A stretch of DNA of 29,362 bases. Origin: Candidatus Heimdallarchaeota archaeon. Its GTDB lineage: Archaea > Asgardarchaeota > Heimdallarchaeia > Hodarchaeales > Hodarchaeaceae. Positions 4,533 through 11,455 of this stretch are shown piece by piece. Within the stretch, counting starts at the first letter, position 1; every line of letters starts with the position of its first letter. The translations under genes and the position numbers were made by a program. The DNA lies in NCBI GenBank assembly GCA_048881705.1, contig JBHLSH010000051.1, forward strand, positions 1 to 29,362. The letters are read 5' to 3'. The notes below the pieces were generated by a model. That model ran no database searches and was not told where the DNA came from. It saw only the letters and a list, made by a program, of their open reading frames with translations.

Positions 4533-5345
4533 TCAGGGAAAATCTTTCTTTCTCATCGTGAATGCAGCCAATAATAGAAAACCGATTATCAATCCTAAGC
4601 ATATTAATAAAGAGGTTGAGGGATCAAGGTCCGGTATCTGAAAATCAATGTAATCTGCAAGAAAGAATTCGGCTGCAACATAGTTCAAATGGTTAGCTAT
4701 AGAGTATGGTGAATTTCCACCTGCGGCAATCCCAAAGATAAACTGTCCGAAGAATGCCTCGAAGTATGCCACGGCGAGTCCCCAGCCTAGCGCATTCTTA
4801 TCGAAAATGATTCCCAAGAAAAGGAAGATTGTGCCATAGACGCTCACCCACAATCCTAGATAGAGCCACACACCAAAGAGAACATTAAAATTGTTAAAGA
4901 GCAAGGAAAAGTCTTGAACAATGAAAGATACTCCCAAGAGTATTATTGTGGCATCTAGATTCACAATAATAACACCTAACACAATTACTGTTATCCATTT
5001 GACCACTACAATTTCTTCTCTGCGAACGGGTCTTGAAAGGAGTTGACTAATGGTTTTGCTCTCCTTTTCATCTGCTATTGCTGAAATCCCCAAAATAAGA
5101 GAGATCAGGGGGAGAACAGCGAAACTAAAGATATTGGTGTTCTGGGACATACTTACTATATCGATATAGGTACCAATGGTCGCTGATGTTAATGTTATTG
5201 CTGGAAGGAGCGGCAATATGCTTATGAATATTAATAGGTATGTCTTTTTGTCATAAAGAACCTTTGCGAAGAATATCTCTCCCAAAAACCGTCCCCTTTC
5301 AATTATCGAAGGAGTGTAAACTTGATTTGAAAGATTAGTACCCAT
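4533..5345 (-). CDS. ABC-2 type transporter permease
   Basis: 270 aa with about 6 TM segments and the motif IADEKESKTISQLLSRPVRREEIVVVKW. Last gene of the ABC quartet. Confidence 0.88.
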   Translation of the reverse strand: MGTNLSNQVYTPSIIERGRFLGEIFFAKVLYDKKTYLLIFISILPLLPAITLTSATIGTYIDIVSMSQNTNIFSFAVLPLISLILGISAIADEKESKTISQLLSRPVRREEIVVVKWITVIVLGVIIVNLDATIILLGVSFIVQDFSLLFNNFNVLFGVWLYLGLWVSVYGTIFLFLGIIFDKNALGWGLAVAYFEAFFGQFIFGIAAGGNSPYSIANHLNYVAAEFFLADYIDFQIPDLDPSTSLLICLGLIIGFLLLAAFTMRKKDFP

Positions 5346-5364
5346 ATATTACACCATCTCTGTA

Positions 5365-6285
5365 TTAAGTTAGATAATCAAATATCGCTTCAATATTATC
5401 CGTAGTACTTTCCAGATGTTGAATTAACAGATCGTTTTCGACAATTAGCTTTGTCACGGCTGGATAAAATTTCCTTGGTGCTTCTGTAACCACTACAAGA
5501 TCTTCTCTACCTTTATCAACGTTGAAAGTCATAGAATGCACAATACTCTCCTCGATCAAAAGTTTTGAAAGCATTTTAAGCTCATTAGAAGGAGCTCGAA
5601 AAAGAATCTGATGTGGAAACTGATCTATTAAATTAAGGATCTCATCAGGCGGTCCTTCTGCCAACGATTGCCCGCGATGAATTAAAACCAGCCGAGTACT
5701 CATTTGATCTAACTCGTAGAGAATATGACTAGAGATTAAAATAGTCACTCCCTGCTGATTTAGATCCGAGACAAGTTGTTTCATTTGCCTACGGCCCAAG
5801 GGATCAAGGCCTCCAAAAGGTTCATCCAAAACAAGTAACTCAGGGTTATGTACAATGGCCGCAGCAACCTTTAATCTTTGTTTCATTCCTTTTGAATAAT
5901 GTCCAATCTTCTTCCCTTTTTCAGCCAGACCTACCTTTTGCAGGGCCTCCTTTGCTGCAGCCTCCGCTTGTTGTCGGGGAAGGAGTAGTTTCGCCAGTGA
6001 TGTCACAAATTGTTTACCGCGCATCCAAGGATACGTATCTTCGTGTTCTGAGACATAACCGATTCGTCTTTTGAGGTTAGCATTATTTAGGGGATCTTCG
6101 TTGAAAACACGCACTTTTCCAGCATCTGGTGATATTTCCCCCATTATTAATTTCAGCGTTGTTGATTTACCTGCGCCATTCGGCCCTAGAAAGCCTGAAA
6201 CCGATCCTCTTTTCACTCGCATGCTCAACCGTGATACTGCAACTACATCTCCAAAGGCCTTTGAGACTTCGTTAATTTCAATCAT
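5365..6285 (-). CDS. ABC transporter ATP-binding protein
   Basis: Walker A GPNGAGKS, signature YSKGMKQ, Walker B LLVLDEP, H-loop SSH. Start moved to the ATG at 6285 (MIEINEVSK) because it overlaps the upstream stop (ATGA) and follows a GGAGG RBS. Confidence 0.93.
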   Translation of the reverse strand: MIEINEVSKAFGDVVAVSRLSMRVKRGSVSGFLGPNGAGKSTTLKLIMGEISPDAGKVRVFNEDPLNNANLKRRIGYVSEHEDTYPWMRGKQFVTSLAKLLLPRQQAEAAAKEALQKVGLAEKGKKIGHYSKGMKQRLKVAAAIVHNPELLVLDEPFGGLDPLGRRQMKQLVSDLNQQGVTILISSHILYELDQMSTRLVLIHRGQSLAEGPPDEILNLIDQFPHQILFRAPSNELKMLSKLLIEESIVHSMTFNVDKGREDLVVVTEAPRKFYPAVTKLIVENDLLIQHLESTTDNIEAIFDYLT

Positions 6286-7304
6286 CTTGAATGCCTCCGA
6301 TAAACCTGAATAATGACAATTAGCAACCCAGCGAATATGTAGAGTCCAAGGGCTCCTAGAACCATCCAACTATCGATTCCAATGCCATCTGCTAGATTGA
6401 GAGTGTAAGAACCTTGGAAACTCGCATATTCTACTGTTGTTGCCCCTTTAAGAATATAGGATGTCAAAAGGAGAACTGTGAGAATATCTAGTAATAATTG
6501 GAGTCCTTCTTCTCCGCTTTCACCGAAAGCTAATGGTGGAATTATCATGCTGATTATAAAGAGGAGCATAAAAGCTGCCAAACCAGAATAAAGCCTGCGC
6601 TTCGTTAAGGATGAAAACGCGAGAATCATTGCTGCGTAGGTTATGGTAATGAGTTCTGTGAAAATGATGACATGTAACAGTAAGGGGAGCGCTTCAATAA
6701 AATCTATACCACCTATTCCTATATACAATAGGAAGAATTCAATAATATAAGGTAAGACTAAAGCAATATTGCCAAATATGACGAAAGCTCCGAATTTTCC
6801 AATAACATACTCGTATTTTTCCAGTTTTGAGTAATATATTTCATTCGTTTTGTTGGAAATATCATCCGCGATTAAACCCGCCCCTATTAGTACAAGCAAG
6901 ATTAGGATGAAAATACTTGTTCCACCCACGGTAAATGATGCACTTGCAAAAGGCCCATTCCCATTCCCATTATCCGTTGAAAAAGTGGTCTGAAAGGTAA
7001 CAATACCTCTCACTAATGATAAAAGCGTGTTTTCCATCAATTCCATCGGCGTGAGAAAAGCGATCCCCGTAAGCGGATTCGTCGATAAAACTAGATCTTT
7101 GGTAGCCAAGATGAACATATTTGTTAGGATTAATGTAAACATCAAAAACCCGAAAAGAATCTTTACAGCTCTTGATCTGTCCCATTGATGTTTCCACCAG
7201 TACCAAGAAATTGACCAGATACGATACAAGCGCCCTCTGCGAGTGCCTTCATAGGGGCGAAATGAAAACCTTCGAACGTAGACATCGCTTGATTTTTGTG
7301 TCAA
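6282..7304 (-). CDS. ABC-2 type transporter permease
   Basis: 340 aa, polytopic, with GAGLIADDISNKTNEIYYSK...EYVIGKF. The TTG start overlaps the upstream stop (TTGA) and follows an AGGAG RBS. Confidence 0.85.
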   Translation of the reverse strand: MTQKSSDVYVRRFSFRPYEGTRRGRLYRIWSISWYWWKHQWDRSRAVKILFGFLMFTLILTNMFILATKDLVLSTNPLTGIAFLTPMELMENTLLSLVRGIVTFQTTFSTDNGNGNGPFASASFTVGGTSIFILILLVLIGAGLIADDISNKTNEIYYSKLEKYEYVIGKFGAFVIFGNIALVLPYIIEFFLLYIGIGGIDFIEALPLLLHVIIFTELITITYAAMILAFSSLTKRRLYSGLAAFMLLFIISMIIPPLAFGESGEEGLQLLLDILTVLLLTSYILKGATTVEYASFQGSYTLNLADGIGIDSWMVLGALGLYIFAGLLIVIIQVYRRHSR

Positions 7305-8233
7305 ATGATCAGCTCCTGTTTCGTTTCAAATAGGTCGACAAAAACATCTTCCAGGGTACTTGATCTGCTTCCGATATAACGAATTTCGGCCCCGACCTCA
7401 TAAGCGACCTTAAACAGCGTTCTTTCGATTTCAGGTGTGATTTCCACCTCAATATAGGCTCTCTCCGTAGATACCTGAAGTCCCTTTTTCATTAGGGCAC
7501 TTAGGAACTCCTCCTCTTTTGATTTTACTTTTACACTTATTGTCGTACGCTTTCTTTCTGTTAATTCGTTTATTTTTCCCTGTGCTAGAATTTTTCCTTG
7601 CGATATAACAATTGCATAATCAGTGGTTTGTTCTACATCACGTAGGAGATGTGAACTCAGAATGATATGTTTCCCTTGATCTGTCTGCAAATCCCGAATG
7701 AGTTTTAGCATTTGGACTCTCCCCCCAGGATCCAAGCCGTTGGTCGGTTCATCACAAATAATAATCTCAGGATCATGAACTAATGCAACCGCGAGCTTAA
7801 CTTTCTGTCTCATCCCCAAACTAAAGGTATCTAGCGTTCTATAACGTTCTTCTCCTAACCCGACATAATAGAGGCTATCACTGGCTCTTTGCTTACTTTC
7901 AGAGTTTGATAACCCGTTCATTCGAGCACAGAATGCGACAAATTTCATAGCAGTCGTATCTGGAACAAACGACGTGTTATATTCGGGGATGTATCCGATA
8001 TTATCTCTCACTTGATTGATTTCTTTCCGGATATCGTAACCTAAAACAGTAGCCATTCCCTTTGTGGGGCGAATGATTCCCAAAAGAGTTCGGATTAATG
8101 TGGTTTTACCTGCCCCATTTGGGCCTAACAGGCCTACTCCTCCAGATGGAACATTGATGGTCACATCATCAATTCCACAAACAGTACCATAAAACTTTGA
8201 CAGGTTCTGTGTCACAATGATTTCTGAGAGCAA
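7301..8233 (-). CDS. ABC transporter ATP-binding protein
   Basis: Walker A GPNGAGKT, signature FSLGMRQ, Walker B IIICDEP, H-loop SSH. TTG start preceded by GAGGT. Confidence 0.93.
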   Translation of the reverse strand: MLSEIIVTQNLSKFYGTVCGIDDVTINVPSGGVGLLGPNGAGKTTLIRTLLGIIRPTKGMATVLGYDIRKEINQVRDNIGYIPEYNTSFVPDTTAMKFVAFCARMNGLSNSESKQRASDSLYYVGLGEERYRTLDTFSLGMRQKVKLAVALVHDPEIIICDEPTNGLDPGGRVQMLKLIRDLQTDQGKHIILSSHLLRDVEQTTDYAIVISQGKILAQGKINELTERKRTTISVKVKSKEEEFLSALMKKGLQVSTERAYIEVEITPEIERTLFKVAYEVGAEIRYIGSRSSTLEDVFVDLFETKQELII

Positions 8234-8516: not shown

Positions 8517-9635
8517 TTACCTGTCTTTGTGCTGGTTATCCTTTTTCTTCCACCTATTGTGTATAACAATTGCAGCAATTGAAAGGATCAGCGATAATTC
8601 GAATGGAGTTGTATCAGTAGTCGTATCAGTCGGAGTTGTCTCTGTTTCAAAAGTAATATCGCTTACGAATGAGAAATCCATCGCTATACTTCGGAATCCC
8701 AAATAAGTCTCTACAACAAAATCACGGAAATTTCCCGTCAAGTTCTGCAAATCCGATAGAATACTTGATAGTCCAATAGTATCAGTCAGTTCTATCAACT
8801 CCACAGAGCGGTTATAGATTTGGGCTCCAATAGCAGATGACGTGTTGATTCCTTGTTCGAAAGTACTTTGACTTCCGCCTCCTATGTACTGTGCGAAGTC
8901 GCTGAATATTTGTGTCCCGTTGTCCTTCAACTCCAGGGGTGCTTCAAGACTGTTATAGGCATTTTTGATATGGTCCCTCATCCCATAGGAGTATGTGAAA
9001 AATCCATATTCATCTGAAGGATTAACTGCGCTCCCATTCCCGTCGTAGTCAACCTTGGTTCCCAACAAGGTATTAGCTATTGCTTCGCCTAACGAATTCG
9101 CCTCTCCAACCGTAGTAATGGGCTCCTTAACCATATTTGAAAGAAGCTGGATGTCCTGGATCGCTCCTAAGGCGAATCCTTGTCCATTAGGGGTGGGAGT
9201 GCCCAGTTCCCATCGGTAATAGATATGCCCAAGGTGTGTACGTACACCACTAGGTTGATTGTGAGTAAACAAGAGCTCCTTGGATGAGCTGCCATTATGA
9301 TAAATTTCTATTCCGTTGAAATTGGATTCTCTGGCAACTCCGATTATATTTATATCAGATTCAATCGTCTCATTTTGATCAAAATCAAACGAATGGGTTT
9401 CGGATCCGACGAACGCCAGCTCAAATGCAGGATGAAATGAAGAAGAAACGTTGTTTATGATTGTGACACGGTATGTACTAGAATCAGTAATACCATCTCC
9501 GATCTCGAAACTAAATTGGATATGAGCTGTTTCTTTCGGGGATGCAACGGCAGACCGTGATCCTTGTGCAAGTACTAACACTGCAAGGAAAAAAGCAAGT
9601 GTGAACAGGTTATATTTCATTTTATAGATTTTCAC
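8517..9635 (-). CDS. secreted/cell-surface glycoprotein with Thr-rich linker and PGF-CTERM-like C-terminal anchor
   Basis: N-terminal signal peptide (MKYNLFTLAFFLAVLVLAQG), 8 N-x-S/T sequons and a DYDGNG Ca-binding-like motif. The C-terminus is TTPTDTTTDTT-PFE-hydrophobic stretch-RWKKK. Start is GTG 9635 or ATG 9620. Confidence 0.7.
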   Translation of the reverse strand: MKIYKMKYNLFTLAFFLAVLVLAQGSRSAVASPKETAHIQFSFEIGDGITDSSTYRVTIINNVSSSFHPAFELAFVGSETHSFDFDQNETIESDINIIGVARESNFNGIEIYHNGSSSKELLFTHNQPSGVRTHLGHIYYRWELGTPTPNGQGFALGAIQDIQLLSNMVKEPITTVGEANSLGEAIANTLLGTKVDYDGNGSAVNPSDEYGFFTYSYGMRDHIKNAYNSLEAPLELKDNGTQIFSDFAQYIGGGSQSTFEQGINTSSAIGAQIYNRSVELIELTDTIGLSSILSDLQNLTGNFRDFVVETYLGFRSIAMDFSFVSDITFETETTPTDTTTDTTPFELSLILSIAAIVIHNRWKKKDNQHKDR

Positions 9636-9677
9636 AGTACCTACTCTCTGTTTAATTTTCGGATAGCAAAATAGTCC

Positions 9678-11138
9678 TTACACTTCTGGAATTTGATCAT
9701 CGGGAAGGGAAAACACCTTTGCTAGACTTATATTCACCTGAGAAGTGAAACTTTCATCAAAATAGCTGTCTCGGAAAGATTTTTCACTGGTTTGAATCAC
9801 ATATTTTGCTAATTCATCGATTGATTTTCGTAATTTTTGGTCATCCCTTGTTGCCCATAGAAGGATTTGTAATTCTCCTCCAATCGTCTTAAAAGGCTTT
9901 TTACTTATTAAAATCTTGTGTTTGCCTGCATCGAGGGATTTAAGCTCAGGAGACTTCGTTATCTCTGATAATAAGGATTGAATGCCAACAAAAGCTCCTC
10001 CCGCGAGTAAAGTATCAACTTTGAACTCTTCCCCAGTAAAAGAGAAAGAATAGGGAGAGATTCCAGCAGTAGAAACTATTAAAAGATAAATAGGTTTGCC
10101 CTTGAAGAACAAACCTCTTACAAATAAGGTTACACCGATAGTGATAGGGATAACGATCAAGCCGAATATAATGAGGACCTCGATTGGGAATGGAGGAGCG
10201 GGGTTAATATTCGATAAATCTACACCGTTATTTTCGAAAATTTTAATTGATCCATCTTCAGCGCCGACAACCAAATCAAGGAACTTTTCATCCTGACCGT
10301 CCAGATCGATTAGGAACGGTGTTAGTCGTTTACTTTGAAACTGAATAGATCTGAAGGGATTATTGGCATTTGAAATAACGACTTGATCCCAAAGCGGGAA
10401 TTCTTCTCCCTCGCTTATTCCTCTATTACGTAAGTAGGCAAGTCCATCCTCTGCTGTTCCGACCACGAAATCGGGAAGATCCTCAGTTCCTCTCGGATAA
10501 ATTGCAATCGGGCTTGCAAAATCCCCTACAACGATCCCCTTGAAAACATCTGGATTTTCAATCCAATTAGGGACATTTGGCGTTCCCTGATTAATAAAGG
10601 CATTCAATCGGCCGTTTTCGTCTCCGACAACTAGATCAATTAGGCCGTCTCCGTCAATATCTGCCGCCGCGGGCTTTGCATATCCCGATACGTTGAGTTG
10701 AGAGGTATAAGTTTCATTTAAAGTTAGGATAAGCCCAGTTCTCGCCATTAGATGGAGAGAACCCGAAGCGTCTCCAATAATGACGTCCATTTGATCGTCG
10801 TCATTGAAATCAAGGAGAGCAGGAGCAGAATGAATCCATTGCTCAACAAAAACTCCTGTTTCCTCCGTCTCGAACTTGAAAGTTGTTAAATTTCCCCCTC
10901 CGTTTTTTTGGTACAAAAGGGGCCCCGACTCTCTTCCGCTTATCAAATCGTAATTGGTATTGCTTTGAAAGTTTAATAACAGGGGGTGACTAAACCCATT
11001 CACATTGTTGTACCCTTCTAGAGGTAAGGCAATCCATAATCCCTCTGTTTGACTGGTAGACCCTGTAGCTGGGATTGCCGTTAACATAAAGAAGGTAAAA
11101 CAGGCTGTTAGAACAATCCGCTGTTTATCTCGAGGCAT
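9678..11138 (-). CDS. single-pass membrane protein: signal peptide, about 5 FG-GAP/VCBS repeats, TM helix, cytoplasmic longin-like domain
   Basis: Repeats of the form P.l.D.dgDg..Dl.vG...G (e.g. KPAAADIDGDGLIDLVVGDENG) span aa ~50-305. A TM helix spans aa ~319-345. The C-terminal ~130 aa (YLLIVSTAGISPYS...LLAGGAFVGIQSLLSEI...LKSLDAGKHKILI...ILLWA...LRKSIDELAK) fits the beta-beta-alpha-beta-beta-beta-alpha-alpha longin pattern. Confidence 0.75.
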   Translation of the reverse strand: MPRDKQRIVLTACFTFFMLTAIPATGSTSQTEGLWIALPLEGYNNVNGFSHPLLLNFQSNTNYDLISGRESGPLLYQKNGGGNLTTFKFETEETGVFVEQWIHSAPALLDFNDDDQMDVIIGDASGSLHLMARTGLILTLNETYTSQLNVSGYAKPAAADIDGDGLIDLVVGDENGRLNAFINQGTPNVPNWIENPDVFKGIVVGDFASPIAIYPRGTEDLPDFVVGTAEDGLAYLRNRGISEGEEFPLWDQVVISNANNPFRSIQFQSKRLTPFLIDLDGQDEKFLDLVVGAEDGSIKIFENNGVDLSNINPAPPFPIEVLIIFGLIVIPITIGVTLFVRGLFFKGKPIYLLIVSTAGISPYSFSFTGEEFKVDTLLAGGAFVGIQSLLSEITKSPELKSLDAGKHKILISKKPFKTIGGELQILLWATRDDQKLRKSIDELAKYVIQTSEKSFRDSYFDESFTSQVNISLAKVFSLPDDQIPEV

Positions 11139-11455
11139 AAAAATTTCAAATTTGGAAGTTGGTCAAAAATTAAAAATACATTTTATAATAGAGTCGTAGT
11201 TTTTTTTGGATTTCAGGGTTGATGGCTGAAAACAGCCTTAAGCCCAGCCCGCCAACTTGGTGCATTAACATATCCCGTATATCATTAATTGTTTTGATTA
11301 AAAGCGGTACCGCTGATTTGATATCTGGAACGAAATCTCCAGTTCTATTCCTTCATTGAAATTCATCATATATGATTGGCAACAGAATCCAAGTTCAAAG
11401 GTACACATTAAAGGGCATAAATTTTAAGCATCATCAAGCTTTTGGAGGTTGGTAA

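What the first reader, a model, noticed from the sequence alone, without database searches (positions are those of the whole stretch)
9678..11138. Receptor-like architecture: integrin-alpha-type FG-GAP ectodomain joined by one TM helix to a cytoplasmic longin-like domain
Seen: signal peptide, about 5 Ca-binding FG-GAP-type repeats (~10224-10991), a single TM helix, and a ~130-aa cytoplasmic domain (~9708-10094) with longin-type secondary-structure periodicity and the LLAGGAFVGIQSLLSEI helix typical of Asgard longin-like tails. Established: longin domains act as small-GTPase (Rab/Rag/Arf) interaction and GEF/GAP platforms in eukaryotes and are expanded in Asgard archaea, and FG-GAP repeats build the integrin-alpha ligand-binding propeller. 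Inference: a transmembrane adhesion/sensing receptor that could couple an outside ligand to small-GTPase signalling, a possible outside-in signalling system. Five blades is fewer than the integrin seven, so oligomerisation or a partner may close the propeller.
Basis: partly seen in the sequence, partly recalled or inferred. Interest (0 to 1): 0.8.

Follow-up and report, generated by a model that had tools for sequence, protein, structure and literature searches.

The report
Asgard propeller receptor with longin tail
An Asgard archaeon encodes a single-pass surface protein with a five-repeat calcium-loop propeller outside and, inside the cell, a domain of the longin type that eukaryotes use to dock small GTPase switches; it is always encoded next to an unknown surface protein, and its function is still inferred.

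Summary
The ORF at 9678-11138 (-), 486 aa, is real and under purifying selection (dN/dS 0.14 against a 91% ortholog). It has an N-terminal signal sequence, five FG-GAP/VCBS blade repeats, one TM helix and a 137-aa cytoplasmic tail.

The propeller passes Pfam FG-GAP_3 but not integrin-type FG-GAP. Only 2 of its 5 loops are canonical Ca loops.

The tail has no Pfam hit of its own. Profile comparisons place it in an Asgard longin family:
- hhalign against 14 Asgard proteins above the Fuz_longin_1 cut-off gives 90.3% (tails alone) and 99.1% (whole family), with controls at 0.2%.
- The best PDB profile hits are MON1A and Bet5.
- An ESM-Atlas structural neighbour is a Fuz_longin_1 cluster.

AlphaFold was closed, so the fold is not directly tested.

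New here:
- A 372-aa surface-protein gene (8517-9635) co-occurs with the receptor in the same 8 of 301 Asgard genomes and is always adjacent.
- 10 of 23 copies of this domain in the genome are membrane-tethered, and one is fused to an Arf-like GTPase.

GTPase coupling remains an inference: there is no neighbouring GTPase gene and no significant linkage. The scan found an ortholog before on other DNA (e1-5416706).

The parts
9678..11138 (-). Receptor gene, 486 aa (P0001): signal sequence, five-repeat propeller, TM helix, longin-like tail
   Evidence: ORF list and translation. dN/dS 0.14 against the G102 ortholog. Orthologs with the same architecture.
11055..11138 (-). N-terminal signal sequence or signal anchor (aa 1-28: MPRDKQR plus hydrophobic aa 8-26)
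   Evidence: Hydropathy and K/R count: 3 K/R before and 0 after the hydrophobic stretch. Cleavage not tested.
10194..11039 (-). Extracellular FG-GAP_3/VCBS-type propeller region, five blade repeats (aa 34-315). Canonical Ca loops in repeats 2 (DFNDDDQMD) and 3 (DIDGDGLID).
   Evidence: Pfam PF13517 E 4.7e-11, over cut-off. Repeat and loop scan in 9 orthologs.
10122..10178 (-). Single transmembrane helix (aa 321-339), followed by RGLFFKGKP
   Evidence: Hydropathy 2.78; K/R 0 outside and 3 inside; same polarity in 9 of 9 relatives.
9693..10103 (-). Cytoplasmic longin-like domain (aa 346-482), Mon1/Fuzzy first-longin type by profile comparison
   Evidence: hhalign against 14 Asgard Fuz_longin_1-positive proteins: 90.3% (A5) and 99.1% (A4), controls 0.2%. 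PDB profile hits MON1A and Bet5. Atlas structural neighbours. No Pfam hit by itself.
9960..10016 (-). Most conserved stretch of the tail, DTLLAGGAFVGIQSLLSEI (aa 375-393), the predicted first helix of the longin domain
   Evidence: Invariant D375, L378, G380, G381, A382, G385, E392, I393 in 11 sequences. It aligns with the G...A..sF helix of MON1A and Bet5.
9636..9677 (-). 42-nt spacer between the receptor and partner genes, with no long T-run; probably co-transcribed (inference)
   Evidence: Sequence read. No RNA data available.
8517..9635 (-). Partner gene, 372 aa: signal sequence, conserved extracytoplasmic domain with invariant H134, H137, Y139, W142, E184, N188, D196, D208, M219, D221, H222, then a Thr-rich stalk, a C-terminal TM anchor and a short basic tail
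   Evidence: Immediately downstream of the receptor in every genome that has the receptor, 8 of 8, and found in none of the other 293 Asgard genomes searched. Alignment A3. No Pfam or PDB match. Atlas model of low confidence.
11139..11210 (-). AT-rich upstream region with TATA-like 'tattataaaa' about 45-55 nt before the ATG; putative promoter (inference only)
   Evidence: Sequence read; not tested.

Best explanation
The gene encodes a type-I membrane protein of a Heimdall/Hodarchaeales-type Asgard archaeon.

Shown: outside the cell it carries a small VCBS/FG-GAP-type propeller of five repeats, two of them with canonical calcium loops. It crosses the membrane once. Inside it ends in a 137-aa domain that belongs to the Asgard longin family nearest to the first longin domain of Mon1/Fuzzy/HPS1 and to TRAPP Bet5. 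The gene is inherited as a pair with a downstream gene for a second membrane-anchored surface protein.

Inferred: the two ectodomains work together as a ligand-binding or adhesion unit. The longin tail dimerises, with itself or with one of the roughly 20 paralogous longin proteins, through its invariant Gly-rich helix. This gives a membrane-fixed platform that docks or regulates one of the genome's many Arf/Rab-like GTPases.

The direction of information flow is not resolved. It could run outside-in, or a GTPase could act on the membrane protein. The same domain also ends MFS transporters and 5- to 12-helix membrane proteins.
For: Architecture and topology.

Real, constrained gene: dN/dS 0.14 overall and 0.10 in the tail.

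Longin assignment:
- hhalign of receptor-type tails (A5) against 14 Asgard proteins over the Fuz_longin_1 cut-off: 90.3%, E 1.5e-6, 93 columns.
- Whole family (A4) against the same set: 99.1%, E 1.6e-18, 122 columns end to end.
- Reversed and unrelated controls: 0.2%.
- The top 4 PDB profile hits are MON1A (E 0.0084 and 0.013) and Bet5 (E 0.010 and 0.022). Roadblock chains score only 0.37-0.63.
- Weak hits of single family members to Pfam Fuz_longin_1, Intu_longin_1 and Longin.
- Atlas structural neighbour: a 138-aa cluster, 48% of it Fuz_longin_1, TM 0.72/0.73 over 125 residues.
- The domain starts 8 residues after the TM helix, so there is no room for the N-terminal helix that defines roadblock.

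Link to GTPases: A5 against 17 other paralogous domains gives 98.4%, E 7.8e-15. One of those 17 follows an Arf-family GTPase domain (E 8.6e-30) in a single 317-aa protein. The genome has 60 matches to the Arf model.

Partner: present in the same 8 of 301 genomes and adjacent in 8 of 8.
Against: - No structure prediction could be run. The fold rests on profiles and on the Atlas's own ESM model (whole protein pLDDT 0.71, pTM 0.58).
- The tail has no Pfam hit even at E 10.
- PDB E-values are marginal (0.008-0.02).
- No small-GTPase gene lies on the window's contig. In the 3 distant orthologous loci aligned only the partner gene is shared with the window, but just 2 of their other neighbours were scanned against Pfam, so those flanks were not searched for GTPase genes.
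- Only 4 of 23 family members lie within 2 kb of a GTPase-model hit, against a random 1.9 +/- 1.3. 12% of random draws reach 4.
- The Arf model also rings in ordinary GTPases of control genomes, so 60 is an upper bound.
- Longin-type folds also serve without GTPases, for example as SNARE regulators or sorting handles.
- The pair is rare: 8 of 301 Asgard genomes, and 1 of 20 other genomes of its own genus. It cannot be a core system.
- No RNA data are available.
Confidence: 0.45

Rival explanations
1. The longin tail is a shared handle on many membrane proteins. A cytoplasmic factor, GTPase-dependent or not, uses it to cluster, sort, localise or gate those proteins. Information would then flow inside-out, or there would be no signalling at all. 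The propeller would simply be the working part, an adhesin or lectin.
For: The same domain family ends three MFS transporters and 5-, 7-, 10- and 12-helix proteins in this genome: 10 of 23 members are membrane-tethered. The MFS fusion is widespread in Hodarchaeales/Heimdall records (95 hits, most carrying PF07690). In eukaryotes, longin domains of SNAREs act as sorting and regulatory handles (established knowledge, recalled; mentioned in passages of PMC10933270).
Against: The receptor-type tails form their own conserved subfamily (LAGGAFxGIQ...EIT) found mainly on single-pass proteins with large ectodomains. This fits a receptor-specific use. No sorting machinery is known in these archaea.
Confidence: 0.3
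2. It is a structural surface or adhesion protein pair. The tail only dimerises or anchors the complex and has no GTPase partner.
For: There is no GTPase gene nearby and no significant GTPase linkage of the family. The partner is another surface protein. FG-GAP/VCBS propellers are common in secreted adhesins and lectins (passages of PMC8023676). The Gly-rich helix (G381xxxG385) would fit tight helix packing in a dimer (inference).
Against: The tail is at least as conserved as the ectodomain in 4 of 6 distant orthologs, and its dN/dS is 0.10. Its family includes an Arf-GTPase fusion. Its nearest solved relatives, Mon1 and Bet5, are GTPase-exchange platforms.
Confidence: 0.15
3. The tail is not a longin. 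It is a roadblock/LC7 domain or another small alpha/beta fold (GAF/PAS-like sensor, profilin-like) that merely shares a sequence pattern.
For: One of 16 family members hits Pfam Robl_LC7 at E 2.8e-4. hhalign of the family against the genome's own Robl_LC7 proteins gives 59.5%. No AlphaFold model could be made.
Against: - The match to longin-positive proteins is far stronger than to roadblock: 99.1% and 90.3% against 59.5% and 11.8%.
- None of the 11 Robl_LC7 hits in the genome is hit by the tail profile.
- The roadblock N-terminal helix stays unmatched in the alignment, and there is no room for it after the TM helix.
- Longin chains outrank roadblock chains in PDB.
Confidence: 0.07

Closest known systems
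First longin domain of Mon1/Fuzzy/HPS1 (Pfam PF19036) and TRAPP Bet5/TRAPPC1: Rab-exchange platforms
   Same: They are the best solved-structure matches of the family profile. MON1A 9l0d_A scores E 0.0084 and Bet5 7ea3_D scores E 0.010, each colinear over about 80 residues including the G-x-P strand loop and the G...A..F helix. Profile-profile match to Asgard proteins above the PF19036 cut-off.
   Different: Those proteins are soluble subunits of hetero-oligomeric complexes. This domain is fused behind a TM helix to an ectodomain. It scores below every Pfam longin cut-off. Exchange activity is untested.
Asgard longin/roadblock expansion, including longin fused to Arf-/Rag-like GTPases (Klinger et al. 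2016 as quoted in PMC4917890; bioRxiv 10.1101/2020.10.19.343400; PMC10933270)
   Same: Same domain family. One paralog in this genome is an Arf-like GTPase followed by this domain. TPR and other fusions fit the reported domain shuffling (passages seen).
   Different: The passages I could read describe soluble and GTPase-, two-component- or ESCRT-linked fusions. They do not describe a propeller-TM-longin receptor, an MFS-longin fusion, or the receptor-partner gene pair. Supplementary tables were closed, and Klinger et al. was not held.
Integrin alpha subunit
   Same: FG-GAP-class blades with DxDxDG calcium loops, type-I topology, and pairing with a second membrane protein. The weak best PDB hits are integrin alpha-5 (E 0.04).
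   Different: Five repeats rather than seven. PF01839 is below its cut-off. There are no thigh or calf domains, since the TM helix follows 5 residues after the last repeat. The tail is a folded longin domain instead of a short GFFKR tail. The partner has no integrin-beta, VWA or any other Pfam match. 'GLFFKG' after the TM helix is not conserved in orthologs.
VCBS / FG-GAP_3 propellers of prokaryotes, and tachylectin-2 (VCBS supercluster, PMC8023676)
   Same: Passes PF13517. Has the DxDxDG loop-AB motif described for this supercluster. A five-bladed ring exists in this supercluster in tachylectin-2 (its blade number is recalled; the word '5-bladed' occurs once in that paper, in a passage not shown to me).
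   Different: Most relatives found are 600-800-aa bacterial secreted proteins with T9SS sorting domains. None of them has the TM helix plus longin tail.
Longin SNAREs (Ykt6, Sec22, VAMP7) and SRalpha SRX with SRbeta
   Same: A longin-type domain held at a membrane by a TM segment of the same protein or of its partner. SRX binds an Arf-like GTPase (recalled knowledge).
   Different: The order is reversed: here the TM helix comes first and the longin domain is C-terminal. No SNARE or coiled-coil match was found in Pfam.

Membership tests
FG-GAP_3 / VCBS beta-propeller repeats (Pfam PF13517) | Score above Pfam's gathering cut-off | tested here: met
   43.6 bits against 26.9, E 4.7e-11, 2 stretches.
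FG-GAP_3 / VCBS beta-propeller repeats (Pfam PF13517) | Repeated blade core with an aspartate-rich DxDxDG calcium loop | tested here: met
   Five blade cores. Strict loops in 2 of 5 repeats here and in up to 4 of 5 in orthologs.
FG-GAP_3 / VCBS beta-propeller repeats (Pfam PF13517) | Closed propeller fold (number of blades, velcro closure) | not testable with these tools
The Atlas gives only whole-protein pTM 0.58.
Integrin alpha subunit | Seven FG-GAP blades and a score above the PF01839 cut-off | tested here: not met
   Five repeats. PF01839 scores 18.5 bits, below 22.1. Integrin alpha-5 scores E 0.04.
Integrin alpha subunit | Thigh/calf leg domains, a short tail with conserved GFFKR, and an integrin-beta partner | tested here: not met
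   The TM helix starts 5 residues after repeat 5. GLFFKG is not conserved in 6 distant orthologs. The partner has 0 Pfam families.
Longin domain (Mon1/Fuzzy/HPS1 LD1 type, PF19036; also PF13774, PF19031) | Score above a Pfam longin cut-off | tested here: not met
   The tail alone gives 0 families at E <= 10. Paralogs reach 22.9 bits against the 26.1 cut-off.
Longin domain (Mon1/Fuzzy/HPS1 LD1 type, PF19036; also PF13774, PF19031) | Profile-level homology to proteins that do pass the cut-off, and to solved longin domains | tested here: met
   hhalign 90.3% (E 1.5e-6) and 99.1% (E 1.6e-18) against 14 Asgard PF19036-positive proteins, controls 0.2%. MON1A and Bet5 top the PDB list at E 0.008-0.02.
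Longin domain (Mon1/Fuzzy/HPS1 LD1 type, PF19036; also PF13774, PF19031) | Fold beta-beta-alpha-beta-beta-beta-alpha-alpha with no N-terminal helix | tested here: inconclusive
   The domain begins 8 residues after the TM helix. The alignment is colinear with Mon1 and Bet5. Atlas neighbour TM 0.72/0.73. No model of my own.
Longin domain (Mon1/Fuzzy/HPS1 LD1 type, PF19036; also PF13774, PF19031) | Dimeric platform that binds a small GTPase | not testable with these tools
   Only indirect evidence: an Arf-GTPase fusion of a paralog. Gene linkage is not significant.
Roadblock/LC7 (PF03259) | Pfam match, and an N-terminal helix before the first strand | tested here: not met
   No hit for the tail. 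1 of 16 family members hits at E 2.8e-4. hhalign 11.8% (A5) and 59.5% (A4) with the roadblock N-helix unmatched.
Longin SNARE | N-terminal longin, SNARE motif, C-terminal TM anchor | tested here: not met
   The order is reversed and there is no SNARE match in Pfam.

The most novel reading that the evidence does not exclude
The receptor and its co-inherited partner form an Asgard outside-in signalling unit. Engagement of the propeller by a ligand or by the partner would change the dimer state of the Mon1-like longin tail. The tail would then act as an exchange or GAP platform for one of the cell's Arf/Rab-like GTPases at the plasma membrane. This would be a prokaryotic forerunner of receptor-controlled small-GTPase switching. 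The MFS-longin fusions would be the matching nutrient 'transceptors'.
Probability: 0.2. Interest if true: 0.85.

Novelty: new variant of a known kind. Interest (0 to 1): 0.55.

Why it matters
Asgard archaea encode dozens of small GTPases and longin/roadblock proteins, and nobody knows what inputs control them. Papers seen here note that operons rarely reveal the pairs (PMC10933270).

A longin domain fixed to the membrane behind an ectodomain, or behind a transporter, gives a concrete and clonable starting point. A 137-aa tail can be tested against the organism's GTPases, and a two-gene surface unit can be tested for binding. If the link holds, it would show that receptor-to-GTPase wiring predates eukaryotes.

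If the link fails, the locus still documents that about 40% of this genome's longin-type domains are membrane-tethered, which bears on how these platforms are used in archaea.

It is not an integrin ancestor.

Tried and rejected
- **Single-sequence searches of the tail or protein gave nothing useful.** Pfam at E 10 found nothing for the tail. NCBIfam found nothing meaningful. PDB phmmer found only integrin alpha-5 at E 0.04 for the propeller.
- **The first family profile (A2, 16 sequences) against PDB was not significant.** The best hits were a designed helical protein at E 0.006 over a helix only, and Trs23 at E 0.24. Only the broader A4 profile brought Mon1 and Bet5 to the top.
- **GTPase neighbourhood.** 4 of 23 family members lie within 2 kb, against a random 1.9 +/- 1.3, and 12% of 2000 draws reach 4. 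I rejected this as evidence.
- **The downstream ABC-transporter genes (4533-8233)** are not conserved next to the orthologs. I rejected them as part of the unit.
- **Partner protein.** No Pfam, PDB or usable Atlas match. The Atlas model has pLDDT 0.51, so its neighbours (Chloroflexota kinase ectodomains, RskA_C) are not trusted.
- **'Tail more conserved than ectodomain'** holds only modestly: 4 of 6 distant orthologs.
- **GLFFKG as an integrin GFFKR motif** was rejected because it is not conserved.
- **No RNA holder listed.** Read laying was not used.
- **Literature.** Searches found no paper describing a propeller-TM-longin or MFS-longin protein. I saw only listings and passages, not whole texts. 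Klinger et al. 2016 is not held. Supplementary tables, for example the asCOG domain architectures of the 2020 preprint, were closed and may list such fusions.

**Rows left out**
- A4 uses 17 of the 20 fetched paralogs. L036, L037 and L038 were dropped as long or weak.
- The longin reference uses the 14 stand-alone proteins (<=175 aa) of the 24 loci fetched.
- The roadblock reference uses 9 of 11 hits. One hit with two TAG stops and one below the cut-off were dropped.
- In one search an antisense ORF slipped into the roadblock alignment. It was removed, and the figures I cite are.
Full report
**1. What is there**

The window holds an ATG-started ORF at 9678..11138 on the minus strand, 486 aa. 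The N-terminus has three basic residues and then a hydrophobic stretch at aa 8-26. A second, stronger hydrophobic helix lies at aa 321-339, with no K/R in the 15 residues before it and three after it. The same polarity (0-2 K/R before, 3-4 after) holds in 9 of 9 relatives checked. So the 290-aa middle part faces outwards and the last ~140 aa face the cytoplasm. Cleavage of the signal sequence was not testable.

Against its 91%-identical ortholog from a genome of the same genus, dN/dS is 0.14 for the whole gene, 0.135 for the ectodomain and 0.10 for the tail. It is therefore a real, constrained gene.

**2. The ectodomain**

Pfam gives these scores:
- FG-GAP_3 (PF13517): E 4.7e-11, 43.6 bits, above the 26.9 cut-off.
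- Integrin-type FG-GAP (PF01839): 18.5 bits, below its 22.1 cut-off.
- BBS2_Mid and Beta-prop_BBS7: weak, below cut-off.

Against solved structures, the best hits are integrin alpha-5 at E 0.04 and ITFG2 at E 1, neither significant.

A motif scan finds five blade cores, at aa 47-100, 101-151, 152-205, 206-269 and 270-315. Strict DxDxDGxxD-type loops occur only in repeats 2 and 3. Repeat 5 is interrupted, and repeats 1 and 4 are degenerate. Orthologs carry the loop in up to four repeats, never in repeat 1.

The other sequence relatives of this region are mostly 600-800-aa bacterial proteins, many with T9SS sorting domains. The propeller is therefore a prokaryote-type VCBS/FG-GAP_3 propeller. 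Passages of PMC8023676 place that group in one supercluster with integrins and tachylectin. Five blades need not imply an incomplete ring: tachylectin-2 is five-bladed (recalled).

**3. The tail**

Alone, the tail has no Pfam match even at E 10. An exhaustive phmmer search of 1.84 billion representatives with aa 345-486 found 16 proteins at E <= 0.001:
- Six of them are full-length orthologs of 466-483 aa with the same propeller-TM-tail layout.
- One is an 889-aa protein with a beta-helix/NosD/Big-type ectodomain, a TM helix and the same tail.
- One is a 356-aa soluble protein.

A later profile search added two more beta-helix/Big_13 ectodomain proteins.

In the alignment of 11 sequences the tail's first helix is the most conserved part: D375, L378, G380, G381, A382, G385, E392 and I393 are invariant.

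Within the window's own genome the tail weakly matched the C-termini of three MFS transporters, a 7-helix protein and a soluble 426-aa protein. A profile of these (A2), searched over 5351 ORFs of the genome, found 23 ORFs at E < 1e-5:
- Ten are membrane-tethered: this receptor, three MFS, and proteins with 5, 5, 7, 7, 10 and 12 predicted helices.
- The remaining 13 include two stand-alone proteins of 145-147 aa, several with the domain at the N-terminus and three with TPR repeats before it. One has the domain after an Arf-family GTPase domain (E 8.6e-30).
- A HerA-like ATPase fusion is a weaker match (E 8.2e-05) and lies outside the 23.

**4. Is it a longin?**

Several independent weak signals agree. 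Single family members hit Pfam as follows:

| Pfam family | Best E-values |
|---|---|
| Fuz_longin_1 | 1.1e-4, 0.0028, 0.025 |
| Intu_longin_1 | 0.0088 |
| Longin | 0.0089 |
| Robl_LC7 (one member) | 2.8e-4 |

A 24-sequence family profile (A4) searched against PDB puts MON1A at E 0.0084 and 0.013 (aligned to its first longin domain) and TRAPP Bet5 at E 0.010 and 0.022 in the top four places. Roadblock light chains score 0.37 and 0.63.

I then fetched Asgard proteins that do pass Pfam's Fuz_longin_1 cut-off. They are present in 42 of 151 Asgard genomes searched, and in none of 7 from this genus. I aligned the 14 stand-alone ones. hhalign results:

| Comparison | Probability | E-value | Columns |
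|---|---|---|---|
| Family (A4) vs longin-positive set | 99.1% | 1.6e-18 | 122, end to end |
| Receptor-type tails alone (A5) vs longin-positive set | 90.3% | 1.5e-6 | 93 |
| Reversed and unrelated controls | 0.2% | - | - |
| A4 vs the genome's nine Robl_LC7 proteins | 59.5% | - | - |
| A5 vs the same Robl_LC7 proteins | 11.8% | - | - |
| A5 vs 17 paralogous domains not used as seeds, the Arf fusion among them | 98.4% | 7.8e-15 | - |

In the roadblock comparison the roadblock N-terminal helix is left unmatched. Passages of PMC10933270 describe the lack of that N-terminal helix as what separates longin from roadblock. Here the first strand starts 8 residues after the TM helix.

The ESM Atlas holds a model of this protein (pLDDT 0.71, pTM 0.58). 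Its structural neighbours for aa 346-482 include a 138-aa Asgard cluster of which 48% carry Fuz_longin_1 (TM 0.72/0.73). They also include Asgard and Thermoplasmatota proteins in which the same fold is joined to HTH_47, receiver or DUF11/CARDB domains.

I conclude that the tail is a longin-type domain of the Mon1/Fuzzy-LD1-like Asgard family. The caveat is that my own fold prediction was impossible.

**5. The partner gene**

Comparing the locus with three distant orthologous loci and the same-genus one shows that only one neighbour is conserved. It is the gene immediately downstream on the same strand (window 8517..9635, 372 aa), at 27-32% identity.

A profile of this partner, searched over the same 301 Asgard genomes as the receptor, is found in exactly the eight genomes that have the full receptor. 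These are the window's genome, 1 of 20 others in its genus, and 6 of 11 in a second family of the same class. It is adjacent and downstream in all eight, including two cases where the receptor is split over contig ends.

The partner has a signal sequence, a conserved extracytoplasmic domain, a Thr-rich stalk, a C-terminal TM anchor and a short basic tail. Invariant residues are H134, H137, Y139, W142, E184, N188, D196, D208 and GM(R/K)DH around 218-222. It has no Pfam or PDB match, and the Atlas model is poor. A metal site is a guess from the invariant His/Asp/Glu residues.

The 42-nt spacer has no long T-run, whereas T-runs follow about 160 nt after the partner's stop. So the two genes probably form one transcript. 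No RNA data exist to check this. The ABC-transporter genes further downstream are not conserved with the pair.

**6. How it may work**

Shown: the architecture, the topology by the positive-inside rule, homology of the tail to longin platforms, the gene pair, and the membership of an Arf-GTPase fusion in the same domain family.

Inferred: the propeller and partner bind each other or a common ligand. The tail dimerises through its Gly-rich helix and docks a small GTPase.

Against a strong claim:
- No GTPase gene lies on this contig, and the flanks of the three distant orthologous loci were not searched for one.
- Linkage of the family to GTPase genes is not above chance (4 of 23 against 1.9 +/- 1.3).
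- The tail type is shared with transporters. This fits a general handle on membrane proteins just as well.

The pair is rare and patchy (8 of 301 genomes), so it is an accessory system.

**7. Novelty**

Large longin/roadblock expansions, longin-GTPase fusions and heavy domain shuffling in Asgard archaea are in print (passages). My nine searches found no description of a propeller-TM-longin receptor, of MFS-longin fusions or of this gene pair. However, I saw passages only, supplements were closed, and Klinger et al. 2016 is not held.

Within this scan an ortholog on other DNA was already reported with the same reading (e1-5416706). Several other 'surface receptor with longin tail' loci were noted too. 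These are AI notes, not independent support. I re-derived the pairing, repeat count and longin assignment here on this genome.

I rate the finding a new variant of a known kind, of moderate interest. It becomes high if a GTPase partner is found.

Noticed in passing
window 8517-9635 (-): 372-aa surface protein, strictly co-inherited with the receptor. It has an invariant H-x-x-H-x-Y..W, E184/N188, D196/D208 and GM(R/K)DH cluster that looks like a metal site. It has no Pfam, PDB or usable Atlas match.
   Followed up: partly
G000 contigs C35:43-1722, C35:4906-6594, C47:20968-22605 (loci L002, L004, L003): Three MFS transporters (~550 aa) end in the same longin-type domain. This fusion is widespread in Hodarchaeales/Heimdall-labelled records: 95 hits, most with PF07690. 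They are possible 'transceptors'.
   Followed up: partly
G000 C35:31617-32570 (L032): A 317-aa protein with an Arf-family GTPase domain (E 8.6e-30) followed by the same longin-type domain (family profile E 1e-6). It would serve as a natural positive control for longin-GTPase docking.
   Followed up: partly
G000 C1:103175-107910: A cluster of two tandem Robl_LC7 genes (C1:103175-103504 and 103508-103915), a small-GTPase-model hit (C1:105279-105791) and a 598-aa protein with the longin-type domain (C1:106114-107910), all on the minus strand.
   Followed up: no
window ~10095-10121 (aa 340-348, RGLFFKGKP): The juxtamembrane sequence resembles the integrin-alpha GFFKR motif. It is present only in the three closest relatives and not in six distant orthologs, so it is most likely chance.
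   Followed up: yes
G000 C25:26041-28257, C77:6099-7910, C61:3871-5832, C32:33278-35911: Three TPR-repeat proteins and one HerA-like ATPase carry the same longin-type domain, C-terminal in the TPR proteins and internal in the ATPase.
   Followed up: no
It was not in my ORF set for the family profile because it runs off the contig.
   Followed up: partly
P0003 (435 aa, 2.3-kb JGI contig): This 73%-identical relative diverges completely from the family after about aa 420 and ends early. A frameshift or assembly error in a short contig is likely.
   Followed up: no
labels of relatives: Database labels disagree on lineage. The 91% ortholog is filed as 'Candidatus Thorarchaeota archaeon', while most MFS-longin relatives are filed as Hodarchaeales/Hodarchaeota/Heimdallarchaeota.
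   Followed up: no
bioRxiv 10.64898/2026.10.28.762692 (passages): [quoted passage not shown] This receptor's propeller gives weak BBS7/BBS2 and ITFG2 hits, so it may belong to that cluster. Not checked.
   Followed up: no
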